DNA from: Deltaproteobacteria bacterium
GTDB taxonomy: Bacteria > Desulfobacterota > JADFVX01
Assembly: GCA_029860075.1 (NCBI GenBank)
Contig: JAOUBX010000044.1
Span: 1 to 37,045, forward strand
DNA: 37,045 nucleotides
Direction of reading: 5' to 3'
Shown: piece by piece, positions 136 through 33,370 of the stretch
Position numbering within the stretch: the stretch's first letter is position 1
Layout: each line of letters opens with the position of its first letter
Notes under the pieces: model-generated
What the model saw: the letters and a program-made list of their open reading frames with translations, nothing else
What the model was told of the DNA's origin: nothing
Database searches by the model: none
Position numbers and translations under genes: made by a program

Positions 136-168
136 CCCCCTCCTTGAATAAGGAGGGGGCTTTTTTCT
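136..168 (+). terminator. Rho-independent terminator-like hairpin (ccccctcctt-gaat-aaggaggggg + TTTTTTCT), possibly bidirectional at the rtcB 3' end
   Basis: Perfect 10-bp GC-rich stem at 136-145/150-159 followed by a T-tract at 161-168 on the + strand. The T-tract overlaps the rtcB stop codon (167-169 on the minus strand). On the minus strand the hairpin is preceded by the A-run rather than followed by U's. Confidence 0.5.
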
Positions 169-1372
169 AGCCCTTCACAACACCAAGAGGCCTTAACTTA
201 ACTAAAGGTTTAATAAGGTCAAGCTCTGACTCGATAACTGTATCGATATCCTTGTACGCCTGAGGTGCCTCACCCAGATCATGGCTCCCCTTCTCCTTGC
301 CGTGTCTCACCTTGTTCCAGCGGTCAAAGACAATTCCTTCCATGGCCTCGTTGCATTCCTCGACGGAAAGACGGCGTGAGGCCTCATTCCTTCCCATGGC
401 ACGACCCGCACCATGAGAGCAGGAAGTGAAGGAGTCACTGCTCCCCAGGCCTTCTACTATGTAAGAGGGGCTTCCCATTGATCCGGGAATAATACCAGCT
501 TCGTTTGTACGTGCCGATGTAGCCCCTTTACGGTGAACCCAGACATTTTTGCCAAAATGATTTTCGATACCTGCATAGTTATGGTGAATGTTTATGGGAC
601 ATTCAAATTCAGTGTCAGGAAAGCTTTCACTTAAGGCCTCCTTGAAAGACTCCATAATTCTTCGCCTGTTTTCTTTTGCATAATCGAGTGCAAAATTCAT
701 GTCTGTAATGTAGGCCTTACCTTCCTTCGAGGAAAGGGGAAGAAAAGCGAGGTCCTTATTGGGGATCTTTGATTTCAACTTGTCATTGAGGCTCATTGCC
801 ACCTGGTTGTAGTACCGTGCGATCTGGTATCCCAGGTTTCGAGAACCCGAATGAATCATGAGCCACACATACCCGTCATCTCCCTCCTGTAGTTCAATGA
901 AGTGGTTTCCCCCTCCAAGCGTTCCAAGGTTTCTGTTTGCCAGCTTCCAGATATGCTCTGAATACCATTTACGGTCTTGTGGGTTTTCAATTTTTTCATC
1001 AAAGCCATTCCAGTCCTGCTTTTTCTTGTGGGCCTTTCCCTCACCACAGGGGACAAGTTCCTTTACTCTGGTGACTATCTGCCGGATCAACTCCCTCGAT
1101 GTTTCAGTCACGGGGAGATCTGTTTTAACAGCTCCCATACCGCAGCCAATATCAACGCCAACGGCATTGGGTATGACAGCGTCTTCACAGGCGATAACGC
1201 CACCGATAGGCATACCGTATCCCTGGTGGCAGTCGGGCATTAAGGCCACATGTTTAAATATAGCAGGATGTTTAGCCAGATCTTCAGCCTGTTTTAAGGC
1301 GCCATCTTCAATTTCACCACACCATGATTTAATAGGAACCCTGTAATTATCTTCATTTTTTACCCATTTCAT
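167..1372 (-). CDS. rtcB: RNA-splicing ligase RtcB (3'-phosphate/5'-OH RNA ligase)
   Basis: 401-aa ORF with hallmark RtcB motifs (MPDCHQGYGMPIGGV, GVDIGCGM, NHAGRxxxR-like C-terminus). The start is 13 nt after the rtcA stop and has an AGAGG RBS. Confidence 0.95.
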   Translation of the reverse strand: MKWVKNEDNYRVPIKSWCGEIEDGALKQAEDLAKHPAIFKHVALMPDCHQGYGMPIGGVIACEDAVIPNAVGVDIGCGMGAVKTDLPVTETSRELIRQIVTRVKELVPCGEGKAHKKKQDWNGFDEKIENPQDRKWYSEHIWKLANRNLGTLGGGNHFIELQEGDDGYVWLMIHSGSRNLGYQIARYYNQVAMSLNDKLKSKIPNKDLAFLPLSSKEGKAYITDMNFALDYAKENRRRIMESFKEALSESFPDTEFECPINIHHNYAGIENHFGKNVWVHRKGATSARTNEAGIIPGSMGSPSYIVEGLGSSDSFTSCSHGAGRAMGRNEASRRLSVEECNEAMEGIVFDRWNKVRHGKEKGSHDLGEAPQAYKDIDTVIESELDLIKPLVKLRPLGVVKG

Positions 1373-1384
1373 AATATTACCTCT

Positions 1385-2410
1385 TTATTCGTTGTTAAAT
1401 AGCTTGATTTCCCAAAGTCCCTCTTCCACTTCATCCATGGTAATATCGACTTTTAGAAATTTGCCAATTACCTCTGCATTTGTCCTGGTATGCTCCGTTG
1501 GTGAAAGAGTGGTGAACCTTCCTCCTCCTGCTATAGCCATTGGTATCAGTAGCTGGTCTGCCAGATATTTCCCTGCCACTGCCTTAGATTCAATGTATTG
1601 CCTGGCACGGTTTGCCGCTTTTTTTGCTACCTTTTCAGCCTTTACGCCCCTTTCACCAAAGCCTGTAAAAACTTCTCTCATATTTTCAGACTCAACCTCA
1701 ATGGTTATTACATTGCCCGGACCAGGTGAATCTTTGACGGTCTTTGCCTGAATGCAGGTTTTATCGAGATTAAAATAATCCATGACAATTTTTAGTTCTC
1801 TGTGAGCAATTTTTTCAGGTATCTGTGATGTAAGAGCCCTGGCTTTTATTCCAATAAGTTTGCCACGTGAAAGCAGTTCAATCTTTTCAAGTCTGTCAGC
1901 AGGATTTACAAGTACCTTAAACCTTCCTCCTCCGGCAGGATAAAAACCATGCTTTTCAAGGGATATGGAAACCTGAACACCCATTCTCTCCAAAAGTGGC
2001 AGAAAGGCCTTTTCGAGAAAATCAAAGGGTGGGGCCATAGGATTATGAGTCCCACCTTCAAGCACGATCTCTGACGGCCCTTTAGCCACCATAAGTGCAG
2101 GAAGTATTGACTGCAAGACAAGTGTACAACTCCCGGCAGAACCGATGGCAAAGTGGTATTTACCATTTTTGATTTGTTCAGGTTTAAAGGTAAGGCTCGT
2201 AGAACGGATTTCATTGCCCTCTGCCCGCGCATTTCCTATCTCAACGGCGGCATTAACTGCCGTCAGGTGCTGCCGCATAAGTCCCGGCTTTCTCCTTTTT
2301 GCCCTGATGTTTTCTATGCAGAATGGTTTGCCCGTTACGAGGGATAGGGCCAGCGCTGTTCTAAGTACCTGCCCGCCTCCTTCACCGTATGAACCATCAA
2401 TATTAATCAT
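1385..2410 (-). CDS. rtcA: RNA 3'-terminal phosphate cyclase RtcA
   Basis: Collinear with E. coli RtcA (GEGGGQVLRTALALS, PGLMRQHLTAVNAA, FAIGSAGSCTLVLQ). The longest ORF runs to 2455, but the internal Met (MINIDGSYGEGGGQ) at 2408-2410 has an AGGAG RBS and matches the canonical RtcA N-terminus. Confidence 0.92.
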   Translation of the reverse strand: MINIDGSYGEGGGQVLRTALALSLVTGKPFCIENIRAKRRKPGLMRQHLTAVNAAVEIGNARAEGNEIRSTSLTFKPEQIKNGKYHFAIGSAGSCTLVLQSILPALMVAKGPSEIVLEGGTHNPMAPPFDFLEKAFLPLLERMGVQVSISLEKHGFYPAGGGRFKVLVNPADRLEKIELLSRGKLIGIKARALTSQIPEKIAHRELKIVMDYFNLDKTCIQAKTVKDSPGPGNVITIEVESENMREVFTGFGERGVKAEKVAKKAANRARQYIESKAVAGKYLADQLLIPMAIAGGGRFTTLSPTEHTRTNAEVIGKFLKVDITMDEVEEGLWEIKLFNNE

Positions 2411-2501
2411 TTTTATTTCTCCTTTTTCCTTAGCTGCCGGGTCGCCCCCTGACAAATTCAGGGGCGACCCACCGACAGCAGGCCGACTGAATTGTACTTC
2501 A

Positions 2502-3608
2502 TTAGAGCAGGTTTACCACTCTGTCGGCCAGACCTTTTTCTCCTAAAACTACACTCAATTTAGAATTACCGGCAATCTTTTCAAGGAAGTCCAGTTCCTT
2601 AAGCCTCATAAGTGTGGGGTTGCTCTCAAGTATACGTGCTGTGTTTGCCTGACTTCTCATGGCTGCCGTTTCTTCCCGGCGCATAATCAGGTTTGCATGG
2701 GCTGCTTTTTGAGCCTCGATGACCTTGTTCATGAGTTCCTTCATTTCACCTGGCAGGATAATATCCCTGATGCCAAGACTGACAATCTCTATTCCAAATT
2801 CCATGCTACGTTGACGGATTGTCTTCTCCAGCTCCTGAGATACATTCTCCCTGTCAGTGAGAAGGGTATCAAGATCATAACTCCCGATGACGGCCCTGAT
2901 AGCAAGTTGTGCCTCCCTGTAAATAGCCTGACGACTATCATCACTGGCAATGACTGACTTAAGGGGGTCTGCAATGCGGTAATTTACGACAGCATTCATC
3001 CTGAGCGATACCTTGTCACGGCTCATAATTTCCTGACCCGCTACATCAAGTACGGTTTCCCGTATATCTACATGGTAAACCTTGACCTTTCCTATTCCTT
3101 TCCAGAAAAGGTGTTGACCCGGCCCTAATGTGTCGACAAACTCTCCATCCCTGAAGTATAGCCCTTTAAATCCCTCATCAACGAATACCATATGGAACCT
3201 TTCCGTTGCATCAGGTGAGTCTGCTATGCTTTTGCGGCTTTTATGGATAAAGCGGATCTCGCTGGCATCAATTATTTCAATTTTTACTTTCCTGAAGGTT
3301 GTCCAAAGAGCATATAGCCCTGGAGCAAGAACCTTTTCAAAGCGTCCATCTATCCAGACAAGGGCACGCTCTGAATCTTTAAGGTCTATTGTGGTCACTT
3401 CTTCATCTAACAAGCCTGACTTTACCATAATGTCGAGCTTTTCATGGGTAAGCCATGGATCCCTCATGGAGACGACATCTACCTTTATCTTGTTAAGAGG
3501 ATCAACAAAACGGTGCTTACCCTTATCAAGCAAACCCATAAATTCCTGTTCTTTAAAATAGAGTCCTTTCTCATAGGAATGAACTTTCTTTGTTTTTATG
3601 ATTAGCAT
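2502..3608 (-). CDS. SPFH/band-7 (slipin/stomatin-like) protein with duplicated N-terminal beta-rich module; no predicted TM helix
   Basis: 368 aa. The C-terminal ~200 aa show typical SPFH/stomatin features, including an Ala/Gln-rich coiled-coil tail (KVIEAQKAAHANLIMRREETAAMRSQANTARI). An N-terminal internal repeat is visible (EKGLYFKEQEFMGLLDKGKHRF vs FKGLYFRDGEFVDTLGPGQHLF). It is first in the operon upstream of rtcA-rtcB and has a good GGAGGG RBS. Confidence 0.8.
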   Translation of the reverse strand: MLIIKTKKVHSYEKGLYFKEQEFMGLLDKGKHRFVDPLNKIKVDVVSMRDPWLTHEKLDIMVKSGLLDEEVTTIDLKDSERALVWIDGRFEKVLAPGLYALWTTFRKVKIEIIDASEIRFIHKSRKSIADSPDATERFHMVFVDEGFKGLYFRDGEFVDTLGPGQHLFWKGIGKVKVYHVDIRETVLDVAGQEIMSRDKVSLRMNAVVNYRIADPLKSVIASDDSRQAIYREAQLAIRAVIGSYDLDTLLTDRENVSQELEKTIRQRSMEFGIEIVSLGIRDIILPGEMKELMNKVIEAQKAAHANLIMRREETAAMRSQANTARILESNPTLMRLKELDFLEKIAGNSKLSVVLGEKGLADRVVNLL

Positions 3609-4034
3609 TTTTAAAATCCCTCCTTCAATTTCTTAATTATCTATCACCGGGAAATAACCCTCCGGAAGCGTTCCCTCTTTCAGCCACACCTTCAGGTGCG
3701 GAGCCAAGCTTGAGTTTTCTTCTGCTTAAGGCTGCCTTTAGCGTCCACCTTTATTTGCAGTAACTTCTTTCACTGTCATCACTCAAAAGGCTTCAGTCTG
3801 TAGGTCTGCCTAAAGCAGGCAGAAAGCGGTATCTGCTTGCTGCATGGCACCTTTAAATGCTGCCCTGTCAGGTTTTGAAATCCTCACCCTTTGGGGAGTG
3901 ACTTTACTAATGCCTTAACAGGGCCGGTCAAAAAAGGGGCGCTTCCTTCAGGTCGATATTGGCGATCATTACGATCAAAGGGGTTTTTAGCCCCTGCTTG
4001 GCGCAGGACTCGAACCTGCAACACTCACAGTATG

Positions 4035-4066
4035 GTGTCGTATCAACCGCAAATTATCATTCTCAG
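4035..4066. repeat. Inverted repeat arm R (32 bp), partner of 4270..4301
   Basis: gtgtcgtatcaaccgcaaattatcattctcag is the reverse complement of 4270..4301 with 30/32 identities. In the minus-strand RNA the two arms form a ~32-bp helix closing the inserted module. Confidence 0.9.
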
Positions 4067-4269
4067 AGTCATTCATAAAGTCCAAGGCAAGGCGCAGTCA
4101 TGCAAAAATAGTTATTCATATTTTAAATGGCTGCAACGCCGCATTGGGCTTTATGGGTGTCTCCCTTCGGGCGATATGATAAGTGGCCATCTACTGCGTC
4201 GTACTCACTTGAATTAGTAACAACTAGTCCTGCGCTCGTACGTCTTGCATATGACCACTTCTCATATCG

Positions 4270-4301
4270 CTGAGATTGATAATTTGCGGTTGACACGACA
4301 C
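4270..4301. repeat. Inverted repeat arm L (32 bp), partner of 4035..4066
   Basis: ctgagattgataatttgcggttgacacgacac, which is the reverse complement of arm R with 2 mismatches. Confidence 0.9.
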
Positions 4302-4476
4302 TCATGTGATGCTCTACCCATTGAGCTAACCAGTTCCCAATACCGGCCTTTGTCAGATCCCATGTCCGGTACACACAATGTTAATCTTTCAAACAGTGTG
4401 TGCCGCTGGCCCGGCGGTATGAGCTTTTTAAAGAACCTGATAGCGGGCATTTCCGCCATCTCTTGCCTTCTATAAT

Positions 4477-4492
4477 GGCAACTCATGTGCCA
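4477..4492 (-). promoter_or_regulatory. Sigma54 (-24/-12) promoter for the leader-spfh-rtcA-rtcB transcript
   Basis: The minus strand reads TGGCAC-ATGAG-TTGCC (revcomp of + 4477-4492 ggcaactcatgtgcca). This is an exact TGGCAC-N5-TTGC with correct GG/GC spacing. It points toward the tRNA-mimic leader and rtc genes, and the cognate sigma54 activator RtcR is encoded divergently. Confidence 0.65.
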
Positions 4493-4569
4493 ACTTTATA
4501 AAAAAAGCCAAAATACTTCTTAACTATCTGTAATAACGAATATAATTTATTTTTACAGACAATTCTGTC

Positions 4570-4598
4570 TTGACAACTGTTCTCGAATAATGCATATT
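4570..4598 (+). promoter_or_regulatory. Candidate sigma70 promoter for rtcR (-35 TTGACA, 17-bp spacer, -10 CATATT)
   Basis: TTGACA at 4570-4575 and CATATT at 4593-4598, about 37 nt upstream of the rtcR ATG. An adjacent small palindrome cAGACAattcTGTCTt could be an RtcR/autoregulatory site. Sequence match only. Confidence 0.3.
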
Positions 4599-4634
4599 TC
4601 TTATATGTATTTATAAGAAAGTATAAAATTAGAT

Positions 4635-6212
4635 ATGAAAAAAACAGTGGCAATTGGTTTGCTAGGAACCATGATGGATCAGGGCAAAGATGAGAAGCGC
4701 TGGCAGCGGTGGCGTCCGACGGTATCCCTTTGTCAGCATGAGGAATTGCTTATAGACCGCCTGGAGCTACTCTACGAAAAACGCTACTCTTCAATTGTGA
4801 AACAGGTTGCTCAAGATATTAAAGCTGTGTCGCCGGAAACAGAAGTAGTCCCTCAAAATGTACATTTTAGAAATCCCTGGGATTTTGAGGAGGTCTATGG
4901 TGTCCTTCACGACTTTGCCAGAGGCTACACTTTTGATGTAGAGAACGAGGATTATCTTATCCATATTACGACGGGAACACATGTGGCCCAGATATGCCTC
5001 TTTCTCCTGACCGAGTCTCACTACTTTCCTGCAAGGCTGATTCAGACCAGTCCGGCGGGAAGGCAAAAGGTTGAAGGTTCTTATGCCATTATCGATCTCG
5101 ATCTCTCAAAATACGACCAACTCGCCATGCGCTTCAGGCAGGAAATCAAGGACGATATCTCCTTCCTCAAGTCCGGCATAGAAACAAGAAATGAGGCTTT
5201 TAACAGTCTTATTGAAAGGATAGAGCGCGTTGCCATGCACTCCATCGACCCAATTCTCCTCATGGGGCCCACAGGGGCAGGTAAGTCAAAGCTGGCCCGC
5301 AGGATCTACGATCTCAAGCAGAGTCGGCGACAGTTGGCGGGAAATTTTGTCGAAGTCAATTGTGCCACGCTCCGGGGGGACGGTGCCATGTCGGCTCTTT
5401 TCGGCCACAAAAAGGGAGCTTTTACAGGGGCCATTGAGGGGAGGGAAGGGCTTTTAAGGGCTGCCGACAAGGGAGTTCTCTTTCTAGATGAGGCAGGAGA
5501 ACTAGGGCTTGATGAACAGTCCATGCTTTTAAGAGCCATTGAAGAAAAATCATTTCTCCCTGTCGGAGCGGACAGGGAAGTCAATAGCGACTTTCAACTG
5601 ATCTGCGGAACGAACCGGGATCTTCAAAAAGACGTTGCCCATGGACGTTTCAGGGAAGATCTTTTTTCCCGTATCAATTTGTGGACCTTTAACCTTCCTG
5701 GACTAAAAGAACGCCCTGAAGATGTAGAGCCCAACCTCGATTATGAACTGGACCGTTTTGCCGAGAGAAATAATCTGCATGTTACCTTTAATAAAGAAGC
5801 CAGAAAAGGCTTTCTTGATTTTTCTACATCCCCCGAAGCTTCATGGTCGGCCAACTTTCGAGATCTAAACAGTGCCGTCACCCGAATGGCAACACTCTCA
5901 AAAGGAGGACGGATAAGGGAAGAGGAAGTTCTTGAAGAAATGGGACGGCTGAGGAAATTGTGGAGCAAACCGGAAAAGGGAGAAGATGTTTTAATTGAAC
6001 GACTTGGAGAAGAAAAGGTTGACCGTCTTGACCGTTTTGACCGGGCGCAACTGGCCGATGTGCTGAGCGTATGCAAGCAATCCAAAAGCCTATCCGAGGC
6101 GGGGCGTATTCTTTTTAACGTATCAAGAAAAAGCAAGAAAACCAGCAATGATGCCGACAGGTTGCGAAAATATCTTACGCGATTTGATATTAACTGGACT
6201 GATTTGCAATGA
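4635..6212 (+). CDS. rtcR: Sigma54-dependent transcriptional activator RtcR (N-terminal CARF domain + AAA+ sigma54-interaction domain + C-terminal HTH)
   Basis: 525 aa, collinear with E. coli RtcR (KKTVAIGLLGTMMDQ..., Walker A GPTGAGKS, and GAFTGA at 5419-5436). It is divergent from the sigma54 promoter of the rtc operon. Confidence 0.95.
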   Translation: MKKTVAIGLLGTMMDQGKDEKRWQRWRPTVSLCQHEELLIDRLELLYEKRYSSIVKQVAQDIKAVSPETEVVPQNVHFRNPWDFEEVYGVLHDFARGYTFDVENEDYLIHITTGTHVAQICLFLLTESHYFPARLIQTSPAGRQKVEGSYAIIDLDLSKYDQLAMRFRQEIKDDISFLKSGIETRNEAFNSLIERIERVAMHSIDPILLMGPTGAGKSKLARRIYDLKQSRRQLAGNFVEVNCATLRGDGAMSALFGHKKGAFTGAIEGREGLLRAADKGVLFLDEAGELGLDEQSMLLRAIEEKSFLPVGADREVNSDFQLICGTNRDLQKDVAHGRFREDLFSRINLWTFNLPGLKERPEDVEPNLDYELDRFAERNNLHVTFNKEARKGFLDFSTSPEASWSANFRDLNSAVTRMATLSKGGRIREEEVLEEMGRLRKLWSKPEKGEDVLIERLGEEKVDRLDRFDRAQLADVLSVCKQSKSLSEAGRILFNVSRKSKKTSNDADRLRKYLTRFDINWTDLQ

Positions 6213-6258
6213 AGAGGATGTATCATTGAAAATTATTGAAAACAAACTGATAGTTAAA

Positions 6259-7179
6259 ATGAAGTTCGGTTCTCATCTTTATGGAACAGCAACCTCTCAT
6301 TCGGATGTGGATTACAAAGGTATTTTTCTGCCGACCAGGGAAGAAGTTCTTCTCGGTAAAATAGCGAAATGTCATAGCTACACCTCGGGAGAGGAGGGTG
6401 CAAAAAATACGAAGGATGATATTGATATTGAACTCTATTCTCTTCATTTTTTTATTAAGCTCGCCTGTGATGGTCAGACCGTTGCCATGGATATGCTTCA
6501 TGCCCCTCAAGATATGTTGATTGAATCGTCGCCCATCTGGGTTGATATTGTTAATAATCGAGAGAAATTCTATACTAAAAACCTTAAATCCTTCATTAAT
6601 TATGCCCGCCGTCAGGCAAGCAAGTATGGTATTAAAGGTTCCAGGTTGAGTGCTGTGAGAACCATTCTTGATCTGCTTGAAAAAGAAGATTCTTCAAAAA
6701 AGATGAGGGAAATCTGGCATATGCTCCCCGAGCTTGAACACTGTTATCATGTTGCACCTAATCCCGATGGTATGAGGCAGTATCAGGTATGCGGAAAATA
6801 TTTTCAGGAATCTGCTGCCATCGATTACGTCATCCCCATTTTGCAAAAGTTCAGTAACGATTATGGAGGAAGGGCGAGACAGGCGTCGGAAAATAAAAAT
6901 GTCGACTGGAAGGCTGTTTCTCATGCCTTAAGGTCAGCATATCAGACCAGGGAAATACTGACCTACAAGAGGATTACTTTTCCATTAAAGGAGGCTGAAC
7001 TTTTAAAAAAGGTCAAAGAAGGTAAGATGGATTATATGTCGGAAGTTGCGCCCCTTTTAGAGGATTTAATGGATGAAGTTGAAAGTCTGGTCGCCGAAAG
7101 CTCACTTCCTGAAAAAGTTGATCAGAAGTTCTGGGATGATATTATTTGCAATACCCTGGAGAAAGAGTTGTTTGGATAG
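6259..7179 (+). CDS. Pol-beta-superfamily nucleotidyltransferase (RlaP/COG3541-like, RNA-repair associated), paralogue 1
   Basis: NTase motif GSHLYGTATSHSDVDYKGIF (GS...DxD). The longest ORF starts at 6148 and overlaps rtcR by 65 nt. Alternative in-frame starts are TTG 6226 and ATG 6259, so the start is uncertain. A conserved helical C-terminal half follows. Confidence 0.7.
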   Translation: MKFGSHLYGTATSHSDVDYKGIFLPTREEVLLGKIAKCHSYTSGEEGAKNTKDDIDIELYSLHFFIKLACDGQTVAMDMLHAPQDMLIESSPIWVDIVNNREKFYTKNLKSFINYARRQASKYGIKGSRLSAVRTILDLLEKEDSSKKMREIWHMLPELEHCYHVAPNPDGMRQYQVCGKYFQESAAIDYVIPILQKFSNDYGGRARQASENKNVDWKAVSHALRSAYQTREILTYKRITFPLKEAELLKKVKEGKMDYMSEVAPLLEDLMDEVESLVAESSLPEKVDQKFWDDIICNTLEKELFG

Positions 7180-7185
7180 ATCGAT

Positions 7186-7950
7186 ATGAAAGAAATTATT
7201 ATTAAAGAACTGGAAAAAATTGAAAAAGAGTTTCATGTCAGGATCATCTATGCCTGTGAGTCAGGCAGCCGTGCATGGGGATTCCCATCAATGGACAGTG
7301 ATTATGATGTACGTTTTATCTACGTTCACCCAAGAGACTGGTATCTTTCCATCGGTGAGAGACGGGATGTTATCGAGCGTCCTATCGATAGTGAGCTGGA
7401 TATTGGTGGTTGGGATATTCGAAAGGCCCTCAAGCTCCTGAAAAAATCAAATTCCCCTCTTCTGGAATGGATTTCTTCGCCTATAGTTTACCGTCAGATT
7501 GGGTCCGTTATGGCTCCCTTCAGGGATCTATCGGAAAAGGCTTTTTTGCCTGAATCTTCATTTCACCACTACCTCGCCATGGCGAAAAAGAAGGTGTCTG
7601 AGATGCAGGAGGAAGAGAAGGTTCGTGCTAAAACGGCTTTCTACGCATTGAGGCCACTTTTATGCTGCACATGGATAGTTGAATTTGGAACCCAGCCTCC
7701 AATGAAAATCGATGAACTTCTATCAGTCTTTATTCCCCATGGTGATTTGCGTGATTACCTCGATGAATTAATAGATGAAAAAAGCAGGAACACTGAATCC
7801 TTTCTTATAGAGCCCTGTACTGAATTGGATGACTACCTTGAACTACAGTTGAGTGAGCTTCAGTTGAATGTGCCTAAAAATCCCGAAAAACTTAAAACTG
7901 AAGTTTTTGATGAAGTTTTCAGGGACGTTTTGAGAACGGTTGAAGAATGA
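7186..7950 (+). CDS. Pol-beta-superfamily nucleotidyltransferase (RlaP/COG3541-like), paralogue 2
   Basis: 254 aa with motif ACESGSRAWGFPSMDSDYDVRFIY (GS...DxD), typical of the ~250-aa predicted-nucleotidyltransferase family found in RtcB neighbourhoods. It starts 6 nt after paralogue 1. Confidence 0.7.
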   Translation: MKEIIIKELEKIEKEFHVRIIYACESGSRAWGFPSMDSDYDVRFIYVHPRDWYLSIGERRDVIERPIDSELDIGGWDIRKALKLLKKSNSPLLEWISSPIVYRQIGSVMAPFRDLSEKAFLPESSFHHYLAMAKKKVSEMQEEEKVRAKTAFYALRPLLCCTWIVEFGTQPPMKIDELLSVFIPHGDLRDYLDELIDEKSRNTESFLIEPCTELDDYLELQLSELQLNVPKNPEKLKTEVFDEVFRDVLRTVEE

Positions 7951-17627: not shown

Positions 17628-17828
17628 ATGAAATAAGTGTGGGGAAAAGGGGACAAAGGTTCTCTTCAAAGCATTAACGGCGCACCTCTTTAAGAAGTAC
17701 GCCGTTTTTTATGTAGTGAAAATCTATATTCATGAAGCCAGGAAAGGTATTAAGCTTTAAAACACAAAAAAAGGGTGGGCATAATGCCTACCCTCTTGTT
17801 ATTAGAAAGGTCTTTTTTTCTCTCTATC

Positions 17829-18284
17829 TTATGAGTGAACCAAATACTCCAGTTCAGAACCACTGATCTGGTGGAAGTTGAGATATTTGTAGATTCTGTC
17901 CGTTGCATCAGCGGTAATCTTCTTGGGAACGATCTCCATATATTCACTTGCTGATGGAAGACGGCCAAGCATGGCAGTAACAGCGGCAAGCTCGGCGCTA
18001 CCGAGGTAAACCTGTGTACCTGTTCCAAGCCTGTTGTTGAAGTTTCTTGTTGATGTTGAGAATACGATTGTGTTGTCGCCAACTCTTGCCTGGTTACCCA
18101 TGCAAAGTGAACAACCCGGGATCTCTGTTCTTGCACCTGCAGCGCCATAGATAGAGTAGTAACCCTCCTGCTGTAGCGTTTTCTCATCCATTTTTGTTGG
18201 AGGACAAATCCACAGTTTTGTTGGAACCTGACCTTCACCTTGCAGTACTTCACCAAGCGCTCTGAAGAGACCGATATTTGTCAT
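17829..18284 (-). pseudogene. Orphan 3' fragment of aconitase B (last 151 codons) with its own copy of the terminator hairpin
   Basis: The protein is 148/151 identical to the C-terminus of the 853-aa AcnB at 20560..23121. Nucleotide identity is only ~90% (rough by-eye estimate), with mostly synonymous changes. The repeat spans 17757..18316, including a degenerate copy of the acnB terminator (gggtgggcataatgcctaccc). Confidence 0.85.
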
Positions 18285-20490: not shown

Positions 20491-20524
20491 AAATAAAAAA
20501 AGGGTGGGCATTTAATGCCCACCC
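20491..20524 (-). terminator. Rho-independent terminator of acnB
   Basis: Perfect hairpin gggtgggcat-tta-atgcccaccc at 20502-20524, followed on the minus strand by a U-tract (the + strand A-run at 20491-20501). It lies 36 nt downstream of the acnB stop. Confidence 0.8.
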
Positions 20525-20559
20525 TCTGTTTAATAGAAAGGTCTGTTTTTCTCTCTTTC

Positions 20560-23121
20560 TTAGTGAACCAGGAATTCCAGTTCAGAACCACTGATTTGGT
20601 GGAAGTTGAGATATTTGTAGATTCTATCCGTTGCATCGGCAGTAATTTTCTTGGGAACTATCTCCATGTACTCACTTGCTGATGGGAGACGACCCAGCAT
20701 GGCAGTAACAGCAGCAAGCTCGGCACTACCGAGGTAAACCTGAGCACCTGTTCCAAGTCTGTTGTTGAAGTTTCTTGTCGATGTTGAGAATACGATTGTG
20801 TTGTCACCAACTCTTGCCTGGTTACCCATGCAAAGTGAACAACCCGGGATTTCTGTTCTTGCACCTGCAGCACCATAGATGGAGTAGTAACCCTCTTGCT
20901 GAAGTGTTTTCTCATCCATTTTTGTTGGAGGACAAATCCACAGCTTTGTTGGAACCTGACCTTCACCTTGCAGTACTTCACCAAGCGCTCTGAAGAGACC
21001 GATATTTGTCATACAGCTTCCAACAAATACTTCGTCGATCTTTTCATTTGGTCTCTTGTCATCAGCTAAAATTTCAGTCAGTGTAGCAACATCATCAGGA
21101 TCATTAGGGCAACAGAGAATAGGCTCTGTGATCTCGTTAAGATCGATCTCTATGACAGCTGCATATTCTGCATCAGAATCAGCTTCAAGAAGTTCAGGAT
21201 TTGCGATCCACTCTTTCATCTTATCAGCTCTTCTCTGAAGCGTGTTGGTATCTTCATAGCCTTCAGCAACCATCTGCTCGATAAGTTTGATGTTTGATTC
21301 AAGAAATTCGGTGACAGGCTCTTTATTGAGCTTAACGGTACAGGCGGCAGCACTTCTTTCAGCCGATGCATCAGAAAGTTCAAAAGCCTGCTCACATTTA
21401 AGATCTTCAAGACCTTCGATTTCCATAACACGTCCGGCGAAGATGTTTTTCTTACCCTTTTTTTCTACCGTAAGATGGCCATCCTGGATAGCCTTATAAG
21501 GAATGGCGTTTACAAGGTCTCTAAGGGTGATACCGGGCTGCATTTCTCCTTTGAACCTGACCAGTACCGATTCAGGCATATTGAGAGGCATGCTGCCTGT
21601 AACACCGGCAAATGCTACAAGGCCGGAACCTGCGGGAAATGAGATGCCGATTGGGAATCTTGTATGGCTGTCACCACCGGTACCGACTGTATCAGGAAGA
21701 CAGAACCTGTTGAGCCATGAGTGGATAACACCGTCACCGGGTCTGAGGATAACACCGCTTCTTGAAGTGATAAACTCAGGAAGTGTATGCTGAAGTTTGA
21801 TATCAGCCGGCTTTGGATAGGCTGCCGTGTGACAGAAGGACTGTAAAACAAAATCGGAACCAAAACCGAGAGCGGCAAGTTCCTTGATTTCGTCTCTTGT
21901 CATTGGTCCCGTTGTATCCTGGGAGCCTACCGTTGCAGCGACAGGCTCAACATACATACCCGGTCTTACACCTGCCATACCGCAAGCTTTACCAACCATT
22001 TTCTGTGCCAGAGTATAGCCTTTGCCCGTATCGGCAGGTTGCTCAGGCTGAGCGAACATATCAGATGCGCCCAGGCCCAGCGCTTCTCTTGCTTTGGCAG
22101 TGAGGCCTTTTCCGATGATAAGAGGAATTCTTCCTCCCGCTCTCATCTCGTCAGCCAATGTATTTGGATTGAGTTTAAATGTGTTTACGGTGGAGCCATC
22201 TTTTTCTATGACACCTTCGTAAGGCTTTACAGTGATCACATCACCCGTTTCGAGGTTGGCAACATCAGTCTCGATGGGGAGGCAGCCTGAATCTTCGGCT
22301 GTATTAAAGAAGATAGGAGCGATGGTGTTACCGATAACAATGCCGCCTGTTCTTTTGTTAGGAACACCGGGGATATCTCTACCCATGTGCCACTGAACAG
22401 AGTTGATACCGGATTTTCTACTTGAACCGGTACCTACAACGTCACCAACATAGGCCAGAGGATGACCTTTAGCTTTCAGCTCTTTCATTGTATCGAGAGG
22501 GTTTTCCATCCTTGCAACAAGCATGGAGTTGGCATGTAGCGGGATGTCACTTCTGGTGAAGGCTTCGCTTGCCGGTGAAAGGTCATCTGTGTTTGTCTCA
22601 CCGGGAATCTTGTAGACCGTTACGGTGATCTCTTTTTCCAGTTCAGGCCTGTTTGTAAACCACTCAGCATTGGCCCAGGACTCGATAACCTCTTTAGCCT
22701 TTGCATTGGATGAAGAAAGTTCTACAACGTCATTGAAGGCATCGTAGACCAAAAGGGTGTTTTTAAGTTTATCAGCAGCAAGGTCAGCTACTTCATCAAC
22801 GGTCAGTGCATCGATAAGAGGTTTAACATTGTATCCACCAAGCATCTGGCCCAGTGCATTTACCGCTTCTTCTTTTGATATTGCAGTTGATATATTTCCC
22901 TGTACTACGTCATTTAAAAATGCCGCTTTTACATAGGCCGAGTCATCAACGCCGGGAGCAACGCGTGTAAATAAGAGTTCTTTTAATTTTTCAGTTTCGC
23001 TGTCATTTGCTTTTATCAGTTCGATGACTTCTGCTGTCTGCTCAGGGGTGAGTGGAAGAGGTGGTACATTGAGTGCTGCTCTTTCTTGTACATGTTGATC
23101 ATAGTTTTTTAAAAAATCCAT
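20560..23121 (-). CDS. acnB: Aconitate hydratase B (bifunctional aconitase 2 / 2-methylisocitrate dehydratase)
   Basis: 853 aa, collinear with AcnB (N-terminal HEAT-like region, swivel domain and aconitase catalytic domains, with Cys ligands in the SCMTNIG / GCSLCMGNQ region). Confidence 0.95.
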
Positions 23122-33203: not shown

Positions 33204-33225
33204 CTAGGAGCCTGTCGGACTTAGG
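33204..33225. repeat. 22-bp inverted repeat arm (partner 33349..33370) flanking a 123-bp AT-rich spacer immediately upstream of the aldolase gene
   Basis: ctaggagcctgtcggacttagg versus the revcomp of 33349..33370 (ctaggagtctgtcggacttagg): 21/22 identities. Confidence 0.85.
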
Positions 33226-33348
33226 GCAAATATACTGCGAAAAAGCTATTTTGGCCAGATTTCCCGATTAAATTCGTTAAATATGTTCAATATTCGCCTC
33301 ATTTAATCAAAAAATCTGACTCAAAATGGCTTTTTCTCGCTACAATTT

Positions 33349-33370
33349 CCTAAGTCCGACAGACTCCTAG
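33349..33370. repeat. 22-bp inverted repeat arm (partner 33204..33225)
   Basis: cctaagtccgacagactcctag. It ends 31 nt before the aldolase ATG. Confidence 0.85.

What the first reader, a model, noticed from the sequence alone, without database searches (positions are those of the whole stretch)
3979..4492. tRNA-mimic RNA with a 267-nt helix-closed insertion in its anticodon loop, in the sigma54-driven leader of the RtcR-controlled operon
An exact sigma54 promoter (TGGCAC-N5-TTGC, minus strand, 4477-4492) sits about 870 nt upstream of the first operon gene. The intervening leader contains a minus-strand element with the following parts:
- a canonical tRNA D-arm (GCUC-AAUGGGUA-GAGC);
- a perfect anticodon stem (UCACA/UGUGA);
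- a 5-nt variable loop;
- a canonical T-arm (GCAGG-UUCGAGU-CCUGC);
- a 3' acceptor-like strand.

The 5' acceptor strand cannot pair with the 3' strand, and the anticodon loop holds a ~267-nt insertion closed by a 32-bp near-perfect helix (30/32). This is the mirror image of bacterial YrlA Y RNAs, which place a tRNA-like module inside a long stem, and those are encoded next to rtcBA under RtcR in Salmonella. Separately, RtcR's CARF domain is reported to sense tRNA-derived fragments. A tRNA decoy transcribed in cis with the repair genes could be a substrate sensor, an autoregulatory element or a Y-RNA analogue. Inside the insertion, gcgcaggacu is complementary to the T-arm/acceptor segment aguccugcgc, which hints at alternative folds.
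Basis: partly seen in the sequence, partly recalled or inferred. Interest (0 to 1): 0.85.

Follow-up and report, generated by a model that had tools for sequence, protein, structure and literature searches.

The report
Known repair-operon tRNA mimic, interrupted
The tRNA look-alike is real but is the already predicted "band 7-associated tRNA" of RtcB RNA-repair operons. The 269-base hairpin in its anticodon loop occurs only in this genome, so it is most likely a tolerated insertion rather than part of the design.

Summary
Minus-strand D arm, anticodon stem, 5-nt variable loop and T arm lie downstream of a TGGCAC-N5-TTGC promoter, split by a 269-nt insertion closed by a 30/32 helix.

The element is not new in kind. 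It is the b7a-tRNA predicted by Burroughs & Aravind (2016) next to Band-7/SPFH genes in RtcB operons, and the window has rtcR, Band-7, rtcA, rtcB and two RlaP genes.

- About 90 homologous loci carry the same cloverleaf, with strong covariation.
- The family has a short 3-4 bp acceptor stem and a hypervariable anticodon loop.
- Only the window has the insertion. The closest relative (82% Band-7 identity) has an intact 6-nt loop at exactly that site.
- No second copy of the insertion was found anywhere searched. It is not a group I or bulge-helix-bulge (BHB) intron.

Best reading: a self-folding, MITE-like orphan insertion tolerated in the most plastic part of the RNA. Some relatives lack the anticodon arm altogether.

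Beyond the finding, the tRNA-like domain sits inside a larger leader RNA conserved across phyla. It has an upstream three-helix domain, two downstream hairpins and conserved boxes, and none of this matches an Rfam family.

The parts
4478..4492 (-). sigma54-type promoter TGGCAC-N5-TTGC, divergent from rtcR
   Evidence: Sequence read. The same motif sits at the same relative position in homologous loci L001, L002, L087, L089, L006-L008, L011-L013 and L067. Its use as a promoter is inferred, not shown.
4430..4460 (-). 5' hairpin followed by a conserved GUUCUUU tract (terminator/attenuator-like) at the start of the leader
   Evidence: Terminator-like hit. A hairpin followed by GUUCUUU (GCUCUUU in L008) recurs in Desulfobacterota-type leaders. 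Function untested.
4337..4423 (-). Conserved upstream RNA domain. Closing helix P1 pairs CUCAUACC (4416-4423) with GGUAUUGG (4337-4344). The junction is GCCGGGCCAG. Helix P2 pairs CGG-CACAC (4398-4405) with GUGUG-UA-CCG (4367-4376), and a CCA/UGG helix and a variable hairpin complete it.
   Evidence: RNAalifold on 12 leaders. On 26 sequences, P2 plus CCA/UGG is 97.5% paired, against 51% or less for slid controls, with compensatory changes at 5 of 11 pairs. A P1 duplex was predicted in all 26, mean z -2.9 against shuffled partner strands (22 of 26 below -1.64), with different sequences. A sequence HMM finds the domain in 44 of 75 held-out loci from other phyla, always abutting the tRNA-like element.
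4301..4332 (-). b7a-tRNA 5' half: short acceptor strand UGGU, U8, A9, D arm, anticodon-stem 5' strand UCACA and loop nucleotides UGAG
   Evidence: It matches positions 3-32 of an HMM built from 69 other b7a-tRNAs (24.0 bits, E 2.6e-8). U8, A14 and the A15:U48 Levitt pair are kept.
4032..4300 (-). Lineage-specific 269-nt insertion in the anticodon loop. A 32-bp closing helix (4035-4066 with 4270-4301) leads to a three-way junction with two hairpins of about 100 nt (4171-4270 and 4066-4163).
   Evidence: Exact gap against L001. Inverted repeats I1-I3. Fold z = -11.7. Absent from all other loci examined. No other copy found.
3999..4031 (-). b7a-tRNA 3' half: loop nucleotides AC, anticodon-stem 3' strand UGUGA, variable loop GUGUU, T arm and acceptor strand GCCA
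   Evidence: It matches HMM positions 35-71 (24.4 bits, E 1.9e-8). With the insertion removed in silico, the two halves match the HMM end to end (54.5 bits, E 6e-18).
3963..3995 (-). Two conserved hairpins directly 3' of the tRNA-like domain: H1 (GGGG-CUAAAAA-CCCC) and H2 (UGAUC-GUAAU-GAUCG)
   Evidence: Both hairpins are present in 11 of 12 aligned leaders, with different stem sequences; in L005 the stretch folded was cut short and shows only H1. H1 is also visible in most of the 70 sequences of alignment A2.
3942..3952 (-). Conserved purine-rich box CCUGAAGGAAG (family consensus CCGARGGRRG)
   Evidence: Same position in the 12 leaders aligned. It resembles the Y RNA GNCGAAG / GGUCCGA motif only loosely. 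Function unknown.
3822..3847 (-). Conserved downstream box CCAUGCAG..GAUACCGCUUUC of the leader
   Evidence: Near-identical in Desulfobacterota and Planctomycetota loci. It is part of the downstream HMM hit found in 19 of 75 held-out loci.
2502..3608 (-). Band-7/SPFH (slipin) gene, first gene of the operon
   Evidence: Pfam PF01145, E 6.6e-34. More than 6000 homologues.
1385..2455 (-). rtcA (RNA 3'-phosphate cyclase)
   Evidence: Pfam PF01137 and PF05189.
167..1372 (-). rtcB (RNA ligase)
   Evidence: Pfam PF01139, E 3.8e-111.
4635..6212 (+). rtcR (CARF-type RtcR domain plus sigma54 AAA+ activator), divergent from the operon
   Evidence: Pfam PF06956 and PF00158.
6148..7950 (+). Two RlaP-family nucleotidyltransferase genes downstream of rtcR
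   Evidence: Pfam PF10127, E 9.5e-16 and 1.1e-87. The family is characterised in PMC12776372.

Best explanation
**What it is.** The element is the window's copy of the band 7-associated tRNA-like RNA (b7a-tRNA). This is the predicted RNA partner of the Band-7/SPFH protein in RtcB/RtcA RNA-repair operons.

**How it likely works.**
- By analogy with Salmonella (inferred), tRNA damage yields 5' tRNA halves ending in 2',3'-cyclic phosphate. These bind the RtcR CARF domain, and RtcR then fires the sigma54 promoter at 4478-4492.
- The transcript begins with an ~870-nt leader that is a multi-domain structured RNA. Its folds are supported by covariation; that it is transcribed as one RNA is inferred.
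- In order, the leader holds a 5' hairpin with a U-rich tract, an upstream three-helix domain closed by helix P1, an L-shaped tRNA-like domain, two hairpins and conserved boxes.
- The acceptor stem of the tRNA-like domain is only 3-4 bp and abuts P1.
- The tRNA-like elbow most likely acts as a scaffold or decoy. It would present a tRNA shape to the co-encoded Band-7, RtcB, RtcA and RlaP proteins or to anticodon nucleases, as proposed for YrlA with Ro60 (inferred).

**What the insertion is.** In this genome alone a 269-nt imperfect palindrome has landed in the anticodon loop, the least constrained part of the family. It folds on itself, extending the anticodon stem by a ~34-bp helix and two hairpins. 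The elbow, the acceptor and the flanking domains stay intact, so it is tolerated. Its origin is most likely a MITE-like mobile element or a local expansion, not a designed part of the RNA.
For: **Identity**
- The gene set is rtcR, Band-7, rtcA, rtcB and two RlaP genes.
- The published description of b7a-tRNA fits.
- The same synteny and the same cloverleaf occur in L001-L005, L087-L092 and 80 genome loci.
- Counted on 70 sequences, the D, anticodon and T stems are 100%, 99.7% and 100% paired with many compensatory changes.
- U8 and A14 are near-invariant and the 15:48 Levitt pair covaries: G:C 35, A:U 23.
- The HMM scores 54.5 bits once the insertion is removed.

**The insertion is lineage-specific**
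- There is an exact 269-nt gap against L001, whose leader is otherwise 74% identical.
- No other locus is split.

**The anticodon arm is plastic**
- Loops of 5, 6 or 8 nt occur in 11 of 70 sequences. U33 is present in only 32 of 59 seven-nt loops. There are 28 different 'anticodons'.
- The arm is missing or much reduced in L018, L056 and L059.

**The insertion is self-contained**
- The minimum-free-energy fold keeps the D arm, anticodon stem and T arm.

**MITE-like traits**
- It has 30/32 terminal inverted repeats, is small and non-coding, and has the GC content of the window.
- Another IR-bounded ~170-bp element lies at 33204-33370.
- Unrelated insertions sit in the leaders of L089 and L091.

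**Larger RNA**
- Supported.
Against: - No second copy of the insertion was found in the window, about 90 loci, JGI metagenome contigs, plasmids, phages, viral contigs or called proteins. The defining multi-copy property of a MITE is therefore unproven.
- No clear target-site duplication is visible.
- The rest of the source genome could not be searched, because its proteins are not in the look-up index.
- The near-perfect 32-bp helix and the fully intact tRNA halves would also fit selection for a functional arm.
- Transcription, RNA ends, protein binding and any role of b7a-tRNA are untested in any organism.
- The primary paper (Burroughs & Aravind 2016) could not be read here. What it says about flanking structure is unknown to me.
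Confidence: 0.65

Rival explanations
1. The insertion is a selected, functional arm. A long double-stranded handle with two hairpins would turn the tRNA-like domain into a bipartite, Y-RNA-like molecule: a tRNA-shaped module plus a long protein-binding or RNase III-processed stem. It could, for example, tether a partner protein or produce tRNA-half-like fragments.
For: - YrlA joins a tRNA-like module to a long stem at the anticodon-arm position.
- The helix is 30/32 paired and the whole insertion is very stable (z -11.7).
- The tRNA halves show no decay.
- No other copies were found that would mark it as a mobile repeat.
Against: - It is present in 1 of about 90 loci and absent from the closest relative.
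- There is no Ro60/TROVE gene among the window proteins scanned against Pfam.
- No Rfam Y RNA or YrlA match was found.
- No homologues exist on which to test covariation.
- RNase III ends (5'-P, 3'-OH; general knowledge) are not RtcB substrates.
Confidence: 0.15
2. The insertion has disabled the b7a-tRNA. This copy would be a recently broken RNA gene in an operon that still works, or is itself on its way to decay.
For: - The contiguous cloverleaf that every other locus keeps is interrupted.
- tRNA-finding tools no longer see it.
- A 32-bp perfect duplex in an mRNA leader would be an RNase III target (general knowledge), which could sever the leader.
Against: - All stems and tertiary-contact nucleotides of both halves are intact.
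- Band-7, rtcA, rtcB and rtcR are full length with strong family matches.
- The insertion folds independently, so the core can still form.
- Relatives that lack the anticodon arm show the arm is dispensable.
Confidence: 0.14
3. The insertion is an intron in a tRNA-like anticodon loop. It would be either self-splicing (group I) or cut out by an endonuclease and resealed by the co-encoded RtcB ligase.
For: - The anticodon loop is the classic site of tRNA introns.
- RtcB is the tRNA-splicing ligase of archaea and animals.
- The size, about 270 nt, is in the range I recall for bacterial tRNA group I introns (from memory, not checked here).
Against: - There is no Intron_gpI or other Rfam match even at E <= 10.
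- No terminal G lies next to the 3' junction (...CACCAU|AC).
- The junction has a 1-nt and a 3-nt bulge 2 bp apart, not a bulge-helix-bulge.
- A 32-bp closing helix is not a group I feature.
- No splicing endonuclease gene is in the operon.
Confidence: 0.03
4. The insertion is an assembly artefact of the metagenome-assembled genome.
For: - The contig comes from a MAG.
- The sequence is unique, and no independent assembly of this locus could be retrieved.
Against: - The insertion is not an inverted copy of neighbouring sequence.
- It is an imperfect palindrome (64% self-complementary overall), not an exact one.
- Both junctions fall cleanly inside a 6-nt loop with flanks colinear to L001.
- Its GC content equals that of the window.
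Confidence: 0.03

Closest known systems
b7a-tRNA (band 7-associated tRNA-like RNA) of SPFH/Band-7 RtcB repair operons (Burroughs & Aravind 2016; summarised in bioRxiv 10.1101/312249)
   Same: - It has the same genomic place and strand, directly upstream of a Band-7 gene with rtcA, rtcB and RlaP.
- It has the same cloverleaf with conserved D and T arms and tertiary nucleotides.
- It matches a family HMM at 54.5 bits once the insertion is removed.
   Different: - The anticodon loop is split by a 269-nt structured insertion, seen in no other locus examined.
- The published description available to me mentions only a tRNA-like gene. Here it is one domain of a longer conserved leader RNA.
YrlA / bacterial Y RNAs encoded with rsr (Ro60) in RtcR-controlled rsr-yrlBA-rtcBA operons
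   Same: - It is a tRNA-like module encoded in an RtcR/sigma54 RNA-repair operon.
- It has conserved D and T arms and a covarying Levitt pair.
- It has a proposed scaffold or decoy role.
- In the window copy only, a long helix emanates from the anticodon-arm position.
   Different: - No Ro60/TROVE gene is present.
- The order of arms is normal, not permuted, and the RNA ends are not in the long stem.
- There is no Rfam match.
- The GNCGAAN0-1G motif is not at a 5' end; only a loosely similar CCUGAAGG box lies downstream.
MITEs and other short palindromic insertion elements
   Same: It has 32-bp terminal inverted repeats (30/32), measures 269 bp, is non-coding, and is inserted in an intergenic leader. 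The contig holds another IR-bounded element.
   Different: No second copy was found in anything searched, there is no clear target-site duplication, and no cognate transposase is known.
Intron-containing tRNA genes (bacterial group I introns, archaeal BHB introns)
   Same: The interruption lies in the anticodon loop and the exon halves are intact.
   Different: There is no group I core and no terminal G next to the 3' junction, no bulge-helix-bulge, and the host is not a decoding tRNA.

Membership tests
b7a-tRNA (Band-7-associated tRNA-like RNA) | Encoded next to, and on the same strand as, a Band-7/SPFH gene in an RtcB RNA-repair gene cluster | tested here: met
   It lies 391 nt upstream of Band-7 (3608), which is followed by rtcA and rtcB. 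rtcR and two RlaP genes are divergent.
b7a-tRNA (Band-7-associated tRNA-like RNA) | Strong resemblance to a tRNA cloverleaf (D, anticodon and T arms, tertiary-contact nucleotides) | tested here: met
   All three stems pair. U8, A14, GG, UUCGAGU and A15:U48 are present. The family stems are 99.7-100% paired with covariation.
b7a-tRNA (Band-7-associated tRNA-like RNA) | Sequence homology to other family members | tested here: met
   An HMM was built from 69 other loci. With the insertion removed, the window matches at 54.5 bits, E 6e-18, over positions 3-71 of 73. The native sequence matches as two halves of 24.0 and 24.4 bits.
b7a-tRNA (Band-7-associated tRNA-like RNA) | Contiguous tRNA-sized (~73 nt) element | tested here: not met
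   It is split by 269 nt in the anticodon loop. This is the only such case among about 90 loci.
b7a-tRNA (Band-7-associated tRNA-like RNA) | Expressed as an RNA that works with the Band-7 protein | not testable with these tools
   This has not been validated experimentally in any organism.
Canonical (decoding) tRNA gene | 7-bp acceptor stem | tested here: not met
   The window has 4 bp. In the family, the three outer pairs are unpaired in 39-56 of 70 sequences.
Canonical (decoding) tRNA gene | 7-nt anticodon loop with U33 and purine 37 | tested here: not met
   The window loop is UGAG + 269 nt + AC. L001 has the 6-nt loop UUAGAC. In the family, U33 is present in 32 of 59 seven-nt loops.
Canonical (decoding) tRNA gene | Detected by tRNA finders | tested here: not met
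   ARAGORN finds 0 genes, with introns allowed and on the spliced sequence. Rfam tRNA gives no hit in the window.
YrlA / bacterial Y RNA | Encoded near a Ro60 (TROVE) gene | tested here: not met
   No TROVE domain was found in the 18 window proteins scanned. Not every small ORF was scanned.
YrlA / bacterial Y RNA | Match to Y RNA / YrlA covariance models | tested here: not met
   No such hit at E <= 10 in 3600-4700.
YrlA / bacterial Y RNA | [quoted passage not shown] | tested here: not met
   The arms run in the order of a normal tRNA: D, anticodon, T (YrlA layout).
YrlA / bacterial Y RNA | GNCGAAN0-1G motif near the 5' end | tested here: inconclusive
   A conserved CCGARGGRRG box lies about 50 nt 3' of the tRNA-like domain (CCUGAAGG in the window). 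CCCGAAGG lies at the junction of the insertion. Neither has the position of the YrlA motif, and neither has its exact sequence.
MITE | Terminal inverted repeats; small; non-coding | tested here: met
   32-nt arms, 30/32 complementary; 269 bp. Its six-frame translation matches no protein.
MITE | Multiple copies in the genome or in related genomes | tested here: inconclusive
   No copy was found in the 37-kb window, 90+ loci, JGI metagenome contigs, plasmids, phages or viral contigs.
MITE | Target-site duplication | tested here: inconclusive
   Only a CAT trinucleotide recurs near both ends, offset by 2 nt on one side.
Group I intron in a tRNA anticodon loop | Group I core (P3-P8) and a terminal G | tested here: not met
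   No Intron_gpI hit at E <= 10. The insertion ends ...CACCAU with no G at the junction. The fold is a 32-bp helix plus two hairpins.
Archaeal-type spliced tRNA intron | Bulge-helix-bulge at the exon-intron junctions | tested here: not met
   The junction has a 1-nt 5' bulge and a 3-nt 3' bulge separated by 2 bp.

The most novel reading that the evidence does not exclude
The 269-nt insertion may not be junk. It could be a recently recruited functional arm that makes this b7a-tRNA a bipartite, Y-RNA-like molecule: a tRNA-shaped head on a ~40-bp double-stranded handle. Alternatively it could be an intervening sequence that is cut out and resealed by the operon's own RtcB ligase. On either reading, the whole sigma54-driven leader would be a previously undescribed large ribonucleoprotein RNA that serves the Band-7 protein as Y RNA serves Ro60.
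Probability: 0.1. Interest if true: 0.8.

Novelty: new variant of a known kind. Interest (0 to 1): 0.45.

Why it matters
b7a-tRNA is a computational prediction that, as far as the texts I could read say, has never been tested. Three results bear on what it does.

- **The window copy is a natural experiment.** A 269-nt structure sits in the anticodon loop while every other tRNA feature is preserved. Some relatives have lost the anticodon arm. Together these suggest the working parts are the elbow and the acceptor side, not the anticodon loop. That argues against a strict anticodon-nuclease decoy role in these lineages.
- **The tRNA-like domain is one module of a longer RNA.** The leader is conserved from Desulfobacterota to Planctomycetota and Acidobacteriota. 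It has covariation-supported helices on its 5' side and no Rfam family. This gives RNA-repair researchers a defined candidate RNA to test with Band-7, RtcB, RtcA and RlaP.
- **There is a practical consequence.** tRNA finders call these elements tRNAs with odd or 'stop' anticodons, which can contaminate tRNA gene sets.

Tried and rejected
- **Group I or other known RNA in the insertion.** Rfam at gathering score and at E <= 10 gave only noise.
- **Intron-aware tRNA detection.** ARAGORN with introns up to 600 nt, and on the spliced sequence, found nothing.
- **Search for further copies of the insertion (MITE test).**
  - The window held only the two arms.
  - Local blastn against all fetched loci found nothing.
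  - A 21-mer of the inverted repeat in JGI metagenome contigs gave one hit inside what reads as unrelated coding sequence, L086.
  - blastn against plasmids and phages gave no match.
  - Two scans of viral contigs gave one chance 18-mer.
  - A concatenated six-frame translation was searched against 5.8 billion proteins, to catch spurious ORFs called in other copies. It gave no hit.
- **Origin of the insertion by duplication of leader sequence.** The insertion junction carries CCCGAAGGG and the leader carries a CCGAAGG box. Smith-Waterman scores against eight leaders, on both strands, equal those of shuffles, so this was rejected.
- **The 10-nt insertion/T-arm complementarity as a switch.** p is about 0.02 by shuffling, and the minimum-free-energy fold keeps the T arm. 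Not pursued.
- **Retrieving the source genome or independent assemblies.** The exact Band-7 protein is not on record.
- **Reading Burroughs & Aravind 2016.** The paper is not held.
- **13-nt identity between the repeat and the L089 spacer.** TGTCAACCGCAAA occurs in the insertion's repeat and in the rtcR-promoter spacer of L089. This is within chance expectation for the amount of sequence compared.
- **First alignment of the upstream leader.** One RNAalifold run on a gappy alignment gave no structure, and one parsing script failed part-way. Both were superseded.
Full report
**1. The observation**

- TGGCAC-N5-TTGC lies at 4478-4492, 870 nt upstream of the first gene.
- The D arm (4311-4326), the anticodon stem (4305-4309 with 4025-4029), a 5-nt variable loop and the T arm (4003-4019) are all present.
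- A 32-nt inverted repeat, 94% complementary (4035-4066 with 4270-4301), encloses the inserted sequence.
- The repeat occurs nowhere else in the window and never in shuffles.
- The region folds with z = -9.6, and the insertion alone with z = -11.7.
- ARAGORN and Rfam see nothing in the window.

**2. Surroundings**

- The downstream genes are a Band-7/SPFH (slipin) protein, RtcA and RtcB.
- Upstream and divergent lie RtcR (CARF-type RtcR domain plus sigma54 AAA+ domain) and two RlaP nucleotidyltransferases.
- No Ro60/TROVE gene and no transposase were found among the proteins scanned from the rest of the contig. Those genes look chromosomal: aconitase, Rho, an NtrY-like histidine kinase with a sigma54-type response regulator, and a restriction-modification methylase.
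- The contig is a 37-kb piece of a 'Deltaproteobacteria bacterium' MAG.

**3. Related loci settle the identity**

- Homologues of the Band-7 protein were traced to their contigs and to 80 species-representative genomes.
- Almost all carry a tRNA-like element 270-600 nt upstream of Band-7, on the same strand.
- In the closest relative, L001 (82% Band-7 identity), the leader aligns to the window end to end at 74% identity. The one exception is a clean 269-nt gap in the anticodon loop: L001 has UUAGAC, the window has UGAG + 269 nt + AC.
- Rfam's tRNA model hits the uninterrupted relatives at 41 bits (L001) and 52 bits (L003).
- An HMM was built from 69 other loci. It matches the window as two halves (24.0 and 24.4 bits, 270 nt apart). 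It matches end to end at 54.5 bits (E 6e-18) once the insertion is removed in silico.

**4. Properties of the family**

Counted on 70 sequences:
- The D, anticodon and T stems are 100%, 99.7% and 100% paired, with many compensatory changes. Slid controls give 27-44%.
- U8 is present in 68 of 70 and A14 in all 70. The T loop is UUCRANU. The 15:48 Levitt pair covaries, G:C 35 and A:U 23. The L-shaped fold is therefore under selection.
- Only the inner 3-4 acceptor pairs are conserved.
- The anticodon loop is hypervariable. There are 28 different 'anticodons', U33 is present in only 32 of 59 seven-nt loops, and 11 of 70 loops have 5, 6 or 8 nt.
- Some loci have no proper anticodon arm. L056 is just a long acceptor helix plus a T arm, and L018 and L059 are reduced.
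- These are not decoding tRNAs, although ARAGORN calls many of them tRNAs, including a 'tRNA-Stop'.

**5. What is already known**

[quoted passage not shown] It credits the prediction to Burroughs & Aravind 2016 and notes that the RNA has not been validated.
- That is the only paper in the library using the name. The 2016 paper itself is not held.
- From memory, its abstract pairs 'Rot/TROVE and SPFH/Band-7 modules' with 'YRNAs and a novel tRNA-like molecule' and introduces the RlaP nucleotidyltransferase. This matches the gene set of the window.
YrlA is a tRNA mimic in the RtcR-controlled Salmonella operon. [quoted passage not shown]
- The tRNA mimic is therefore a member of a known, predicted kind.

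**6. The insertion**

- It is unique to the window among about 90 loci.
- It forms a 32-bp closing helix and then a three-way junction with two ~100-nt hairpins. It is 64% self-complementary overall, and its GC content equals that of the contig.
- It is not a group I intron: there is no Rfam hit at E <= 10 and no G at the 3' junction.
- It is not a bulge-helix-bulge intron.
- It shows no significant similarity to the leader or to leaders of relatives.
- Every search for another copy failed.
- The remainder of the source genome was out of reach, so the multi-copy criterion for a MITE is untested where it matters most.
- The contig does hold another IR-bounded ~170-bp element, at 33204-33370.
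- The leaders of L089 and L091 carry unrelated ~280-nt insertions elsewhere. Such leaders therefore do collect insertions.
- The insertion folds on itself and the family's anticodon arm is dispensable or variable. My best reading is a tolerated, MITE-like orphan insertion (confidence about 0.65).
- A functional arm, a disabling hit, an intron and an assembly artefact rank below it.

**7. Beyond the finding: a larger conserved RNA**

*Upstream domain.*
- In RtcR-type loci, the leader between the promoter and the tRNA-like domain holds a conserved domain.
- Helix P1 has its 5' strand just before the box CGCCGGGCCAG and its 3' strand 4-6 nt before the acceptor.
- Helix P2 pairs CGR-CRCAC with GUGYG-WW-YCG and encloses a variable hairpin. 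A CCA/UGG helix completes the domain.
- RNAalifold recovers P2 and CCA/UGG.
- On 26 sequences these are 97.5% paired, against 51% or less for slid controls, with compensatory changes at 5 of 11 pairs.
- A P1 duplex was predicted in all 26 sequences, with quite different strands (mean z -2.9 against shuffled partners; 22 of 26 below -1.64).

*Downstream elements.*
- Two hairpins follow the tRNA-like domain in 11 of the 12 leaders folded; the twelfth stretch (L005) was cut short.
- A CCGARGGRRG box and a CCAUGCAG..GAUACCGCUUC box follow them.

*Distribution.*
- HMMs trained on 10 leaders find the upstream domain in 44 of 75 held-out loci and the downstream region in 19 of 75. These loci come from Planctomycetota, Acidobacteriota and others. 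The hits are always on the same strand and at the expected distance.
- No Rfam family matches these parts.
- No paper found in the library describes them. I cannot exclude that the 2016 paper does.

**8. Mechanism**

*Shown here:*
- the conserved L-shaped fold;
- its fixed place in a conserved leader;
- the sigma54-type promoter motif and the divergent rtcR gene;
- the lineage-specific insertion.

*Inferred:*
- RtcR, activated by cyclic-phosphate tRNA halves as in Salmonella, drives transcription of the leader.
- The RNA serves as scaffold or decoy for Band-7, RtcB, RtcA and RlaP, or for anticodon nucleases, as suggested for YrlA.
- The window's insertion leaves that function intact because it only lengthens the anticodon arm.

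**9. Verdict**

The element is a tRNA mimic of the RtcR regulon, as already predicted in the literature.
- The insertion is a one-off variant, probably incidental.
- Interest is moderate. It rests mainly on what the variant and the arm-less relatives say about which parts of b7a-tRNA matter, and on the larger conserved leader RNA.

Noticed in passing
L017-L050 and others (e.g. L023 1479-2324, L021 1737-2356, L029 1482-2336): In many Planctomycetota loci an array of ordinary-looking tRNA genes lies just upstream of the b7a-tRNA and Band-7, on the same strand. The recurring order is Trp(CCA), two or three Arg, then Cys(GCA), often with His, Thr and Gln. Trp and Cys tRNAs are among those cleaved on DNA damage in Salmonella, and Arg tRNAs are colicin D targets. 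In Anabaena one repressor controls rtcB, a slipin gene and a tRNA array (PMC10272220). The arrays could be spare tRNAs linked to the repair system.
   Followed up: partly
L018 2443-2491, L056 ~2600-2690, L059 2410-2463: Some b7a loci have a reduced tRNA-like domain without a proper anticodon arm. L056 is only a long acceptor helix plus a T arm. All three still keep the upstream conserved domain.
   Followed up: partly
window 4430-4460 (minus strand): A hairpin followed by GUUCUUUAAA lies right after the predicted transcription start and was flagged as terminator-like. The GUUCUUU tract after a hairpin is conserved in Desulfobacterota-type leaders. It could be an early attenuator or a protein-binding site.
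   Followed up: no
window 33204-33370: A second IR-bounded element of ~167 bp has 22-nt arms, 95% complementary, and a partly palindromic interior. It lies in an intergenic region upstream of the DeoC-family gene. It is unrelated in sequence to the insertion.
   Followed up: partly
window 17760-18128 and 20491-20856: A ~370-nt direct repeat is 78-92% identical. It appears to duplicate the 3' end of the aconitase B gene and its downstream hairpin.
   Followed up: no
L089 ~2680-2965 and L091 ~2700-2960: The leaders of two Olavius-symbiont-like loci carry ~280-nt insertions just before the Band-7 ribosome-binding site. L089's is flanked by short tandem repeats (GGATTGC on one side, CAATCTT on the other); in L091 only the CAATCTT run is seen. 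These are different elements at a different site from the window's insertion.
   Followed up: no
L006 1253-2977, L007 1210-3001; L013 2237-2368: Gene order varies between loci. In two Desulfobacterales MAGs the order is b7a-tRNA, rtcB, then Band-7. L013 has two tandem tRNA-like elements after one upstream domain.
   Followed up: no
L005 4563-4635 (Syntrophotalea carbinolica CP000142), L048 2538-2609 and others: ARAGORN calls b7a-tRNAs ordinary tRNAs with odd identities. Examples are Leu(CAG) with a short variable loop, His(AUG), 'Stop'(UUA) and 2- or 4-base anticodons. Genome annotations may therefore list them as tRNA or suppressor genes.
   Followed up: no
window 4549-4576; same spacer in L001, L005, L087, L089, L006-L008: A TGTCAA-containing, partly palindromic motif recurs between rtcR and the sigma54 promoter and may be the RtcR binding site. 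The insertion's terminal repeat also contains TGTCAAC. It shares 13 nt with the L089 spacer, which is within chance expectation.
   Followed up: no
window 6148-6212: The first RlaP-like ORF (start 6148) overlaps the end of rtcR (6212) by 65 nt. It matches only the N-terminal part of the RlaP profile (PF10127, E 9.5e-16), whereas the second ORF is a full-length RlaP.
   Followed up: no
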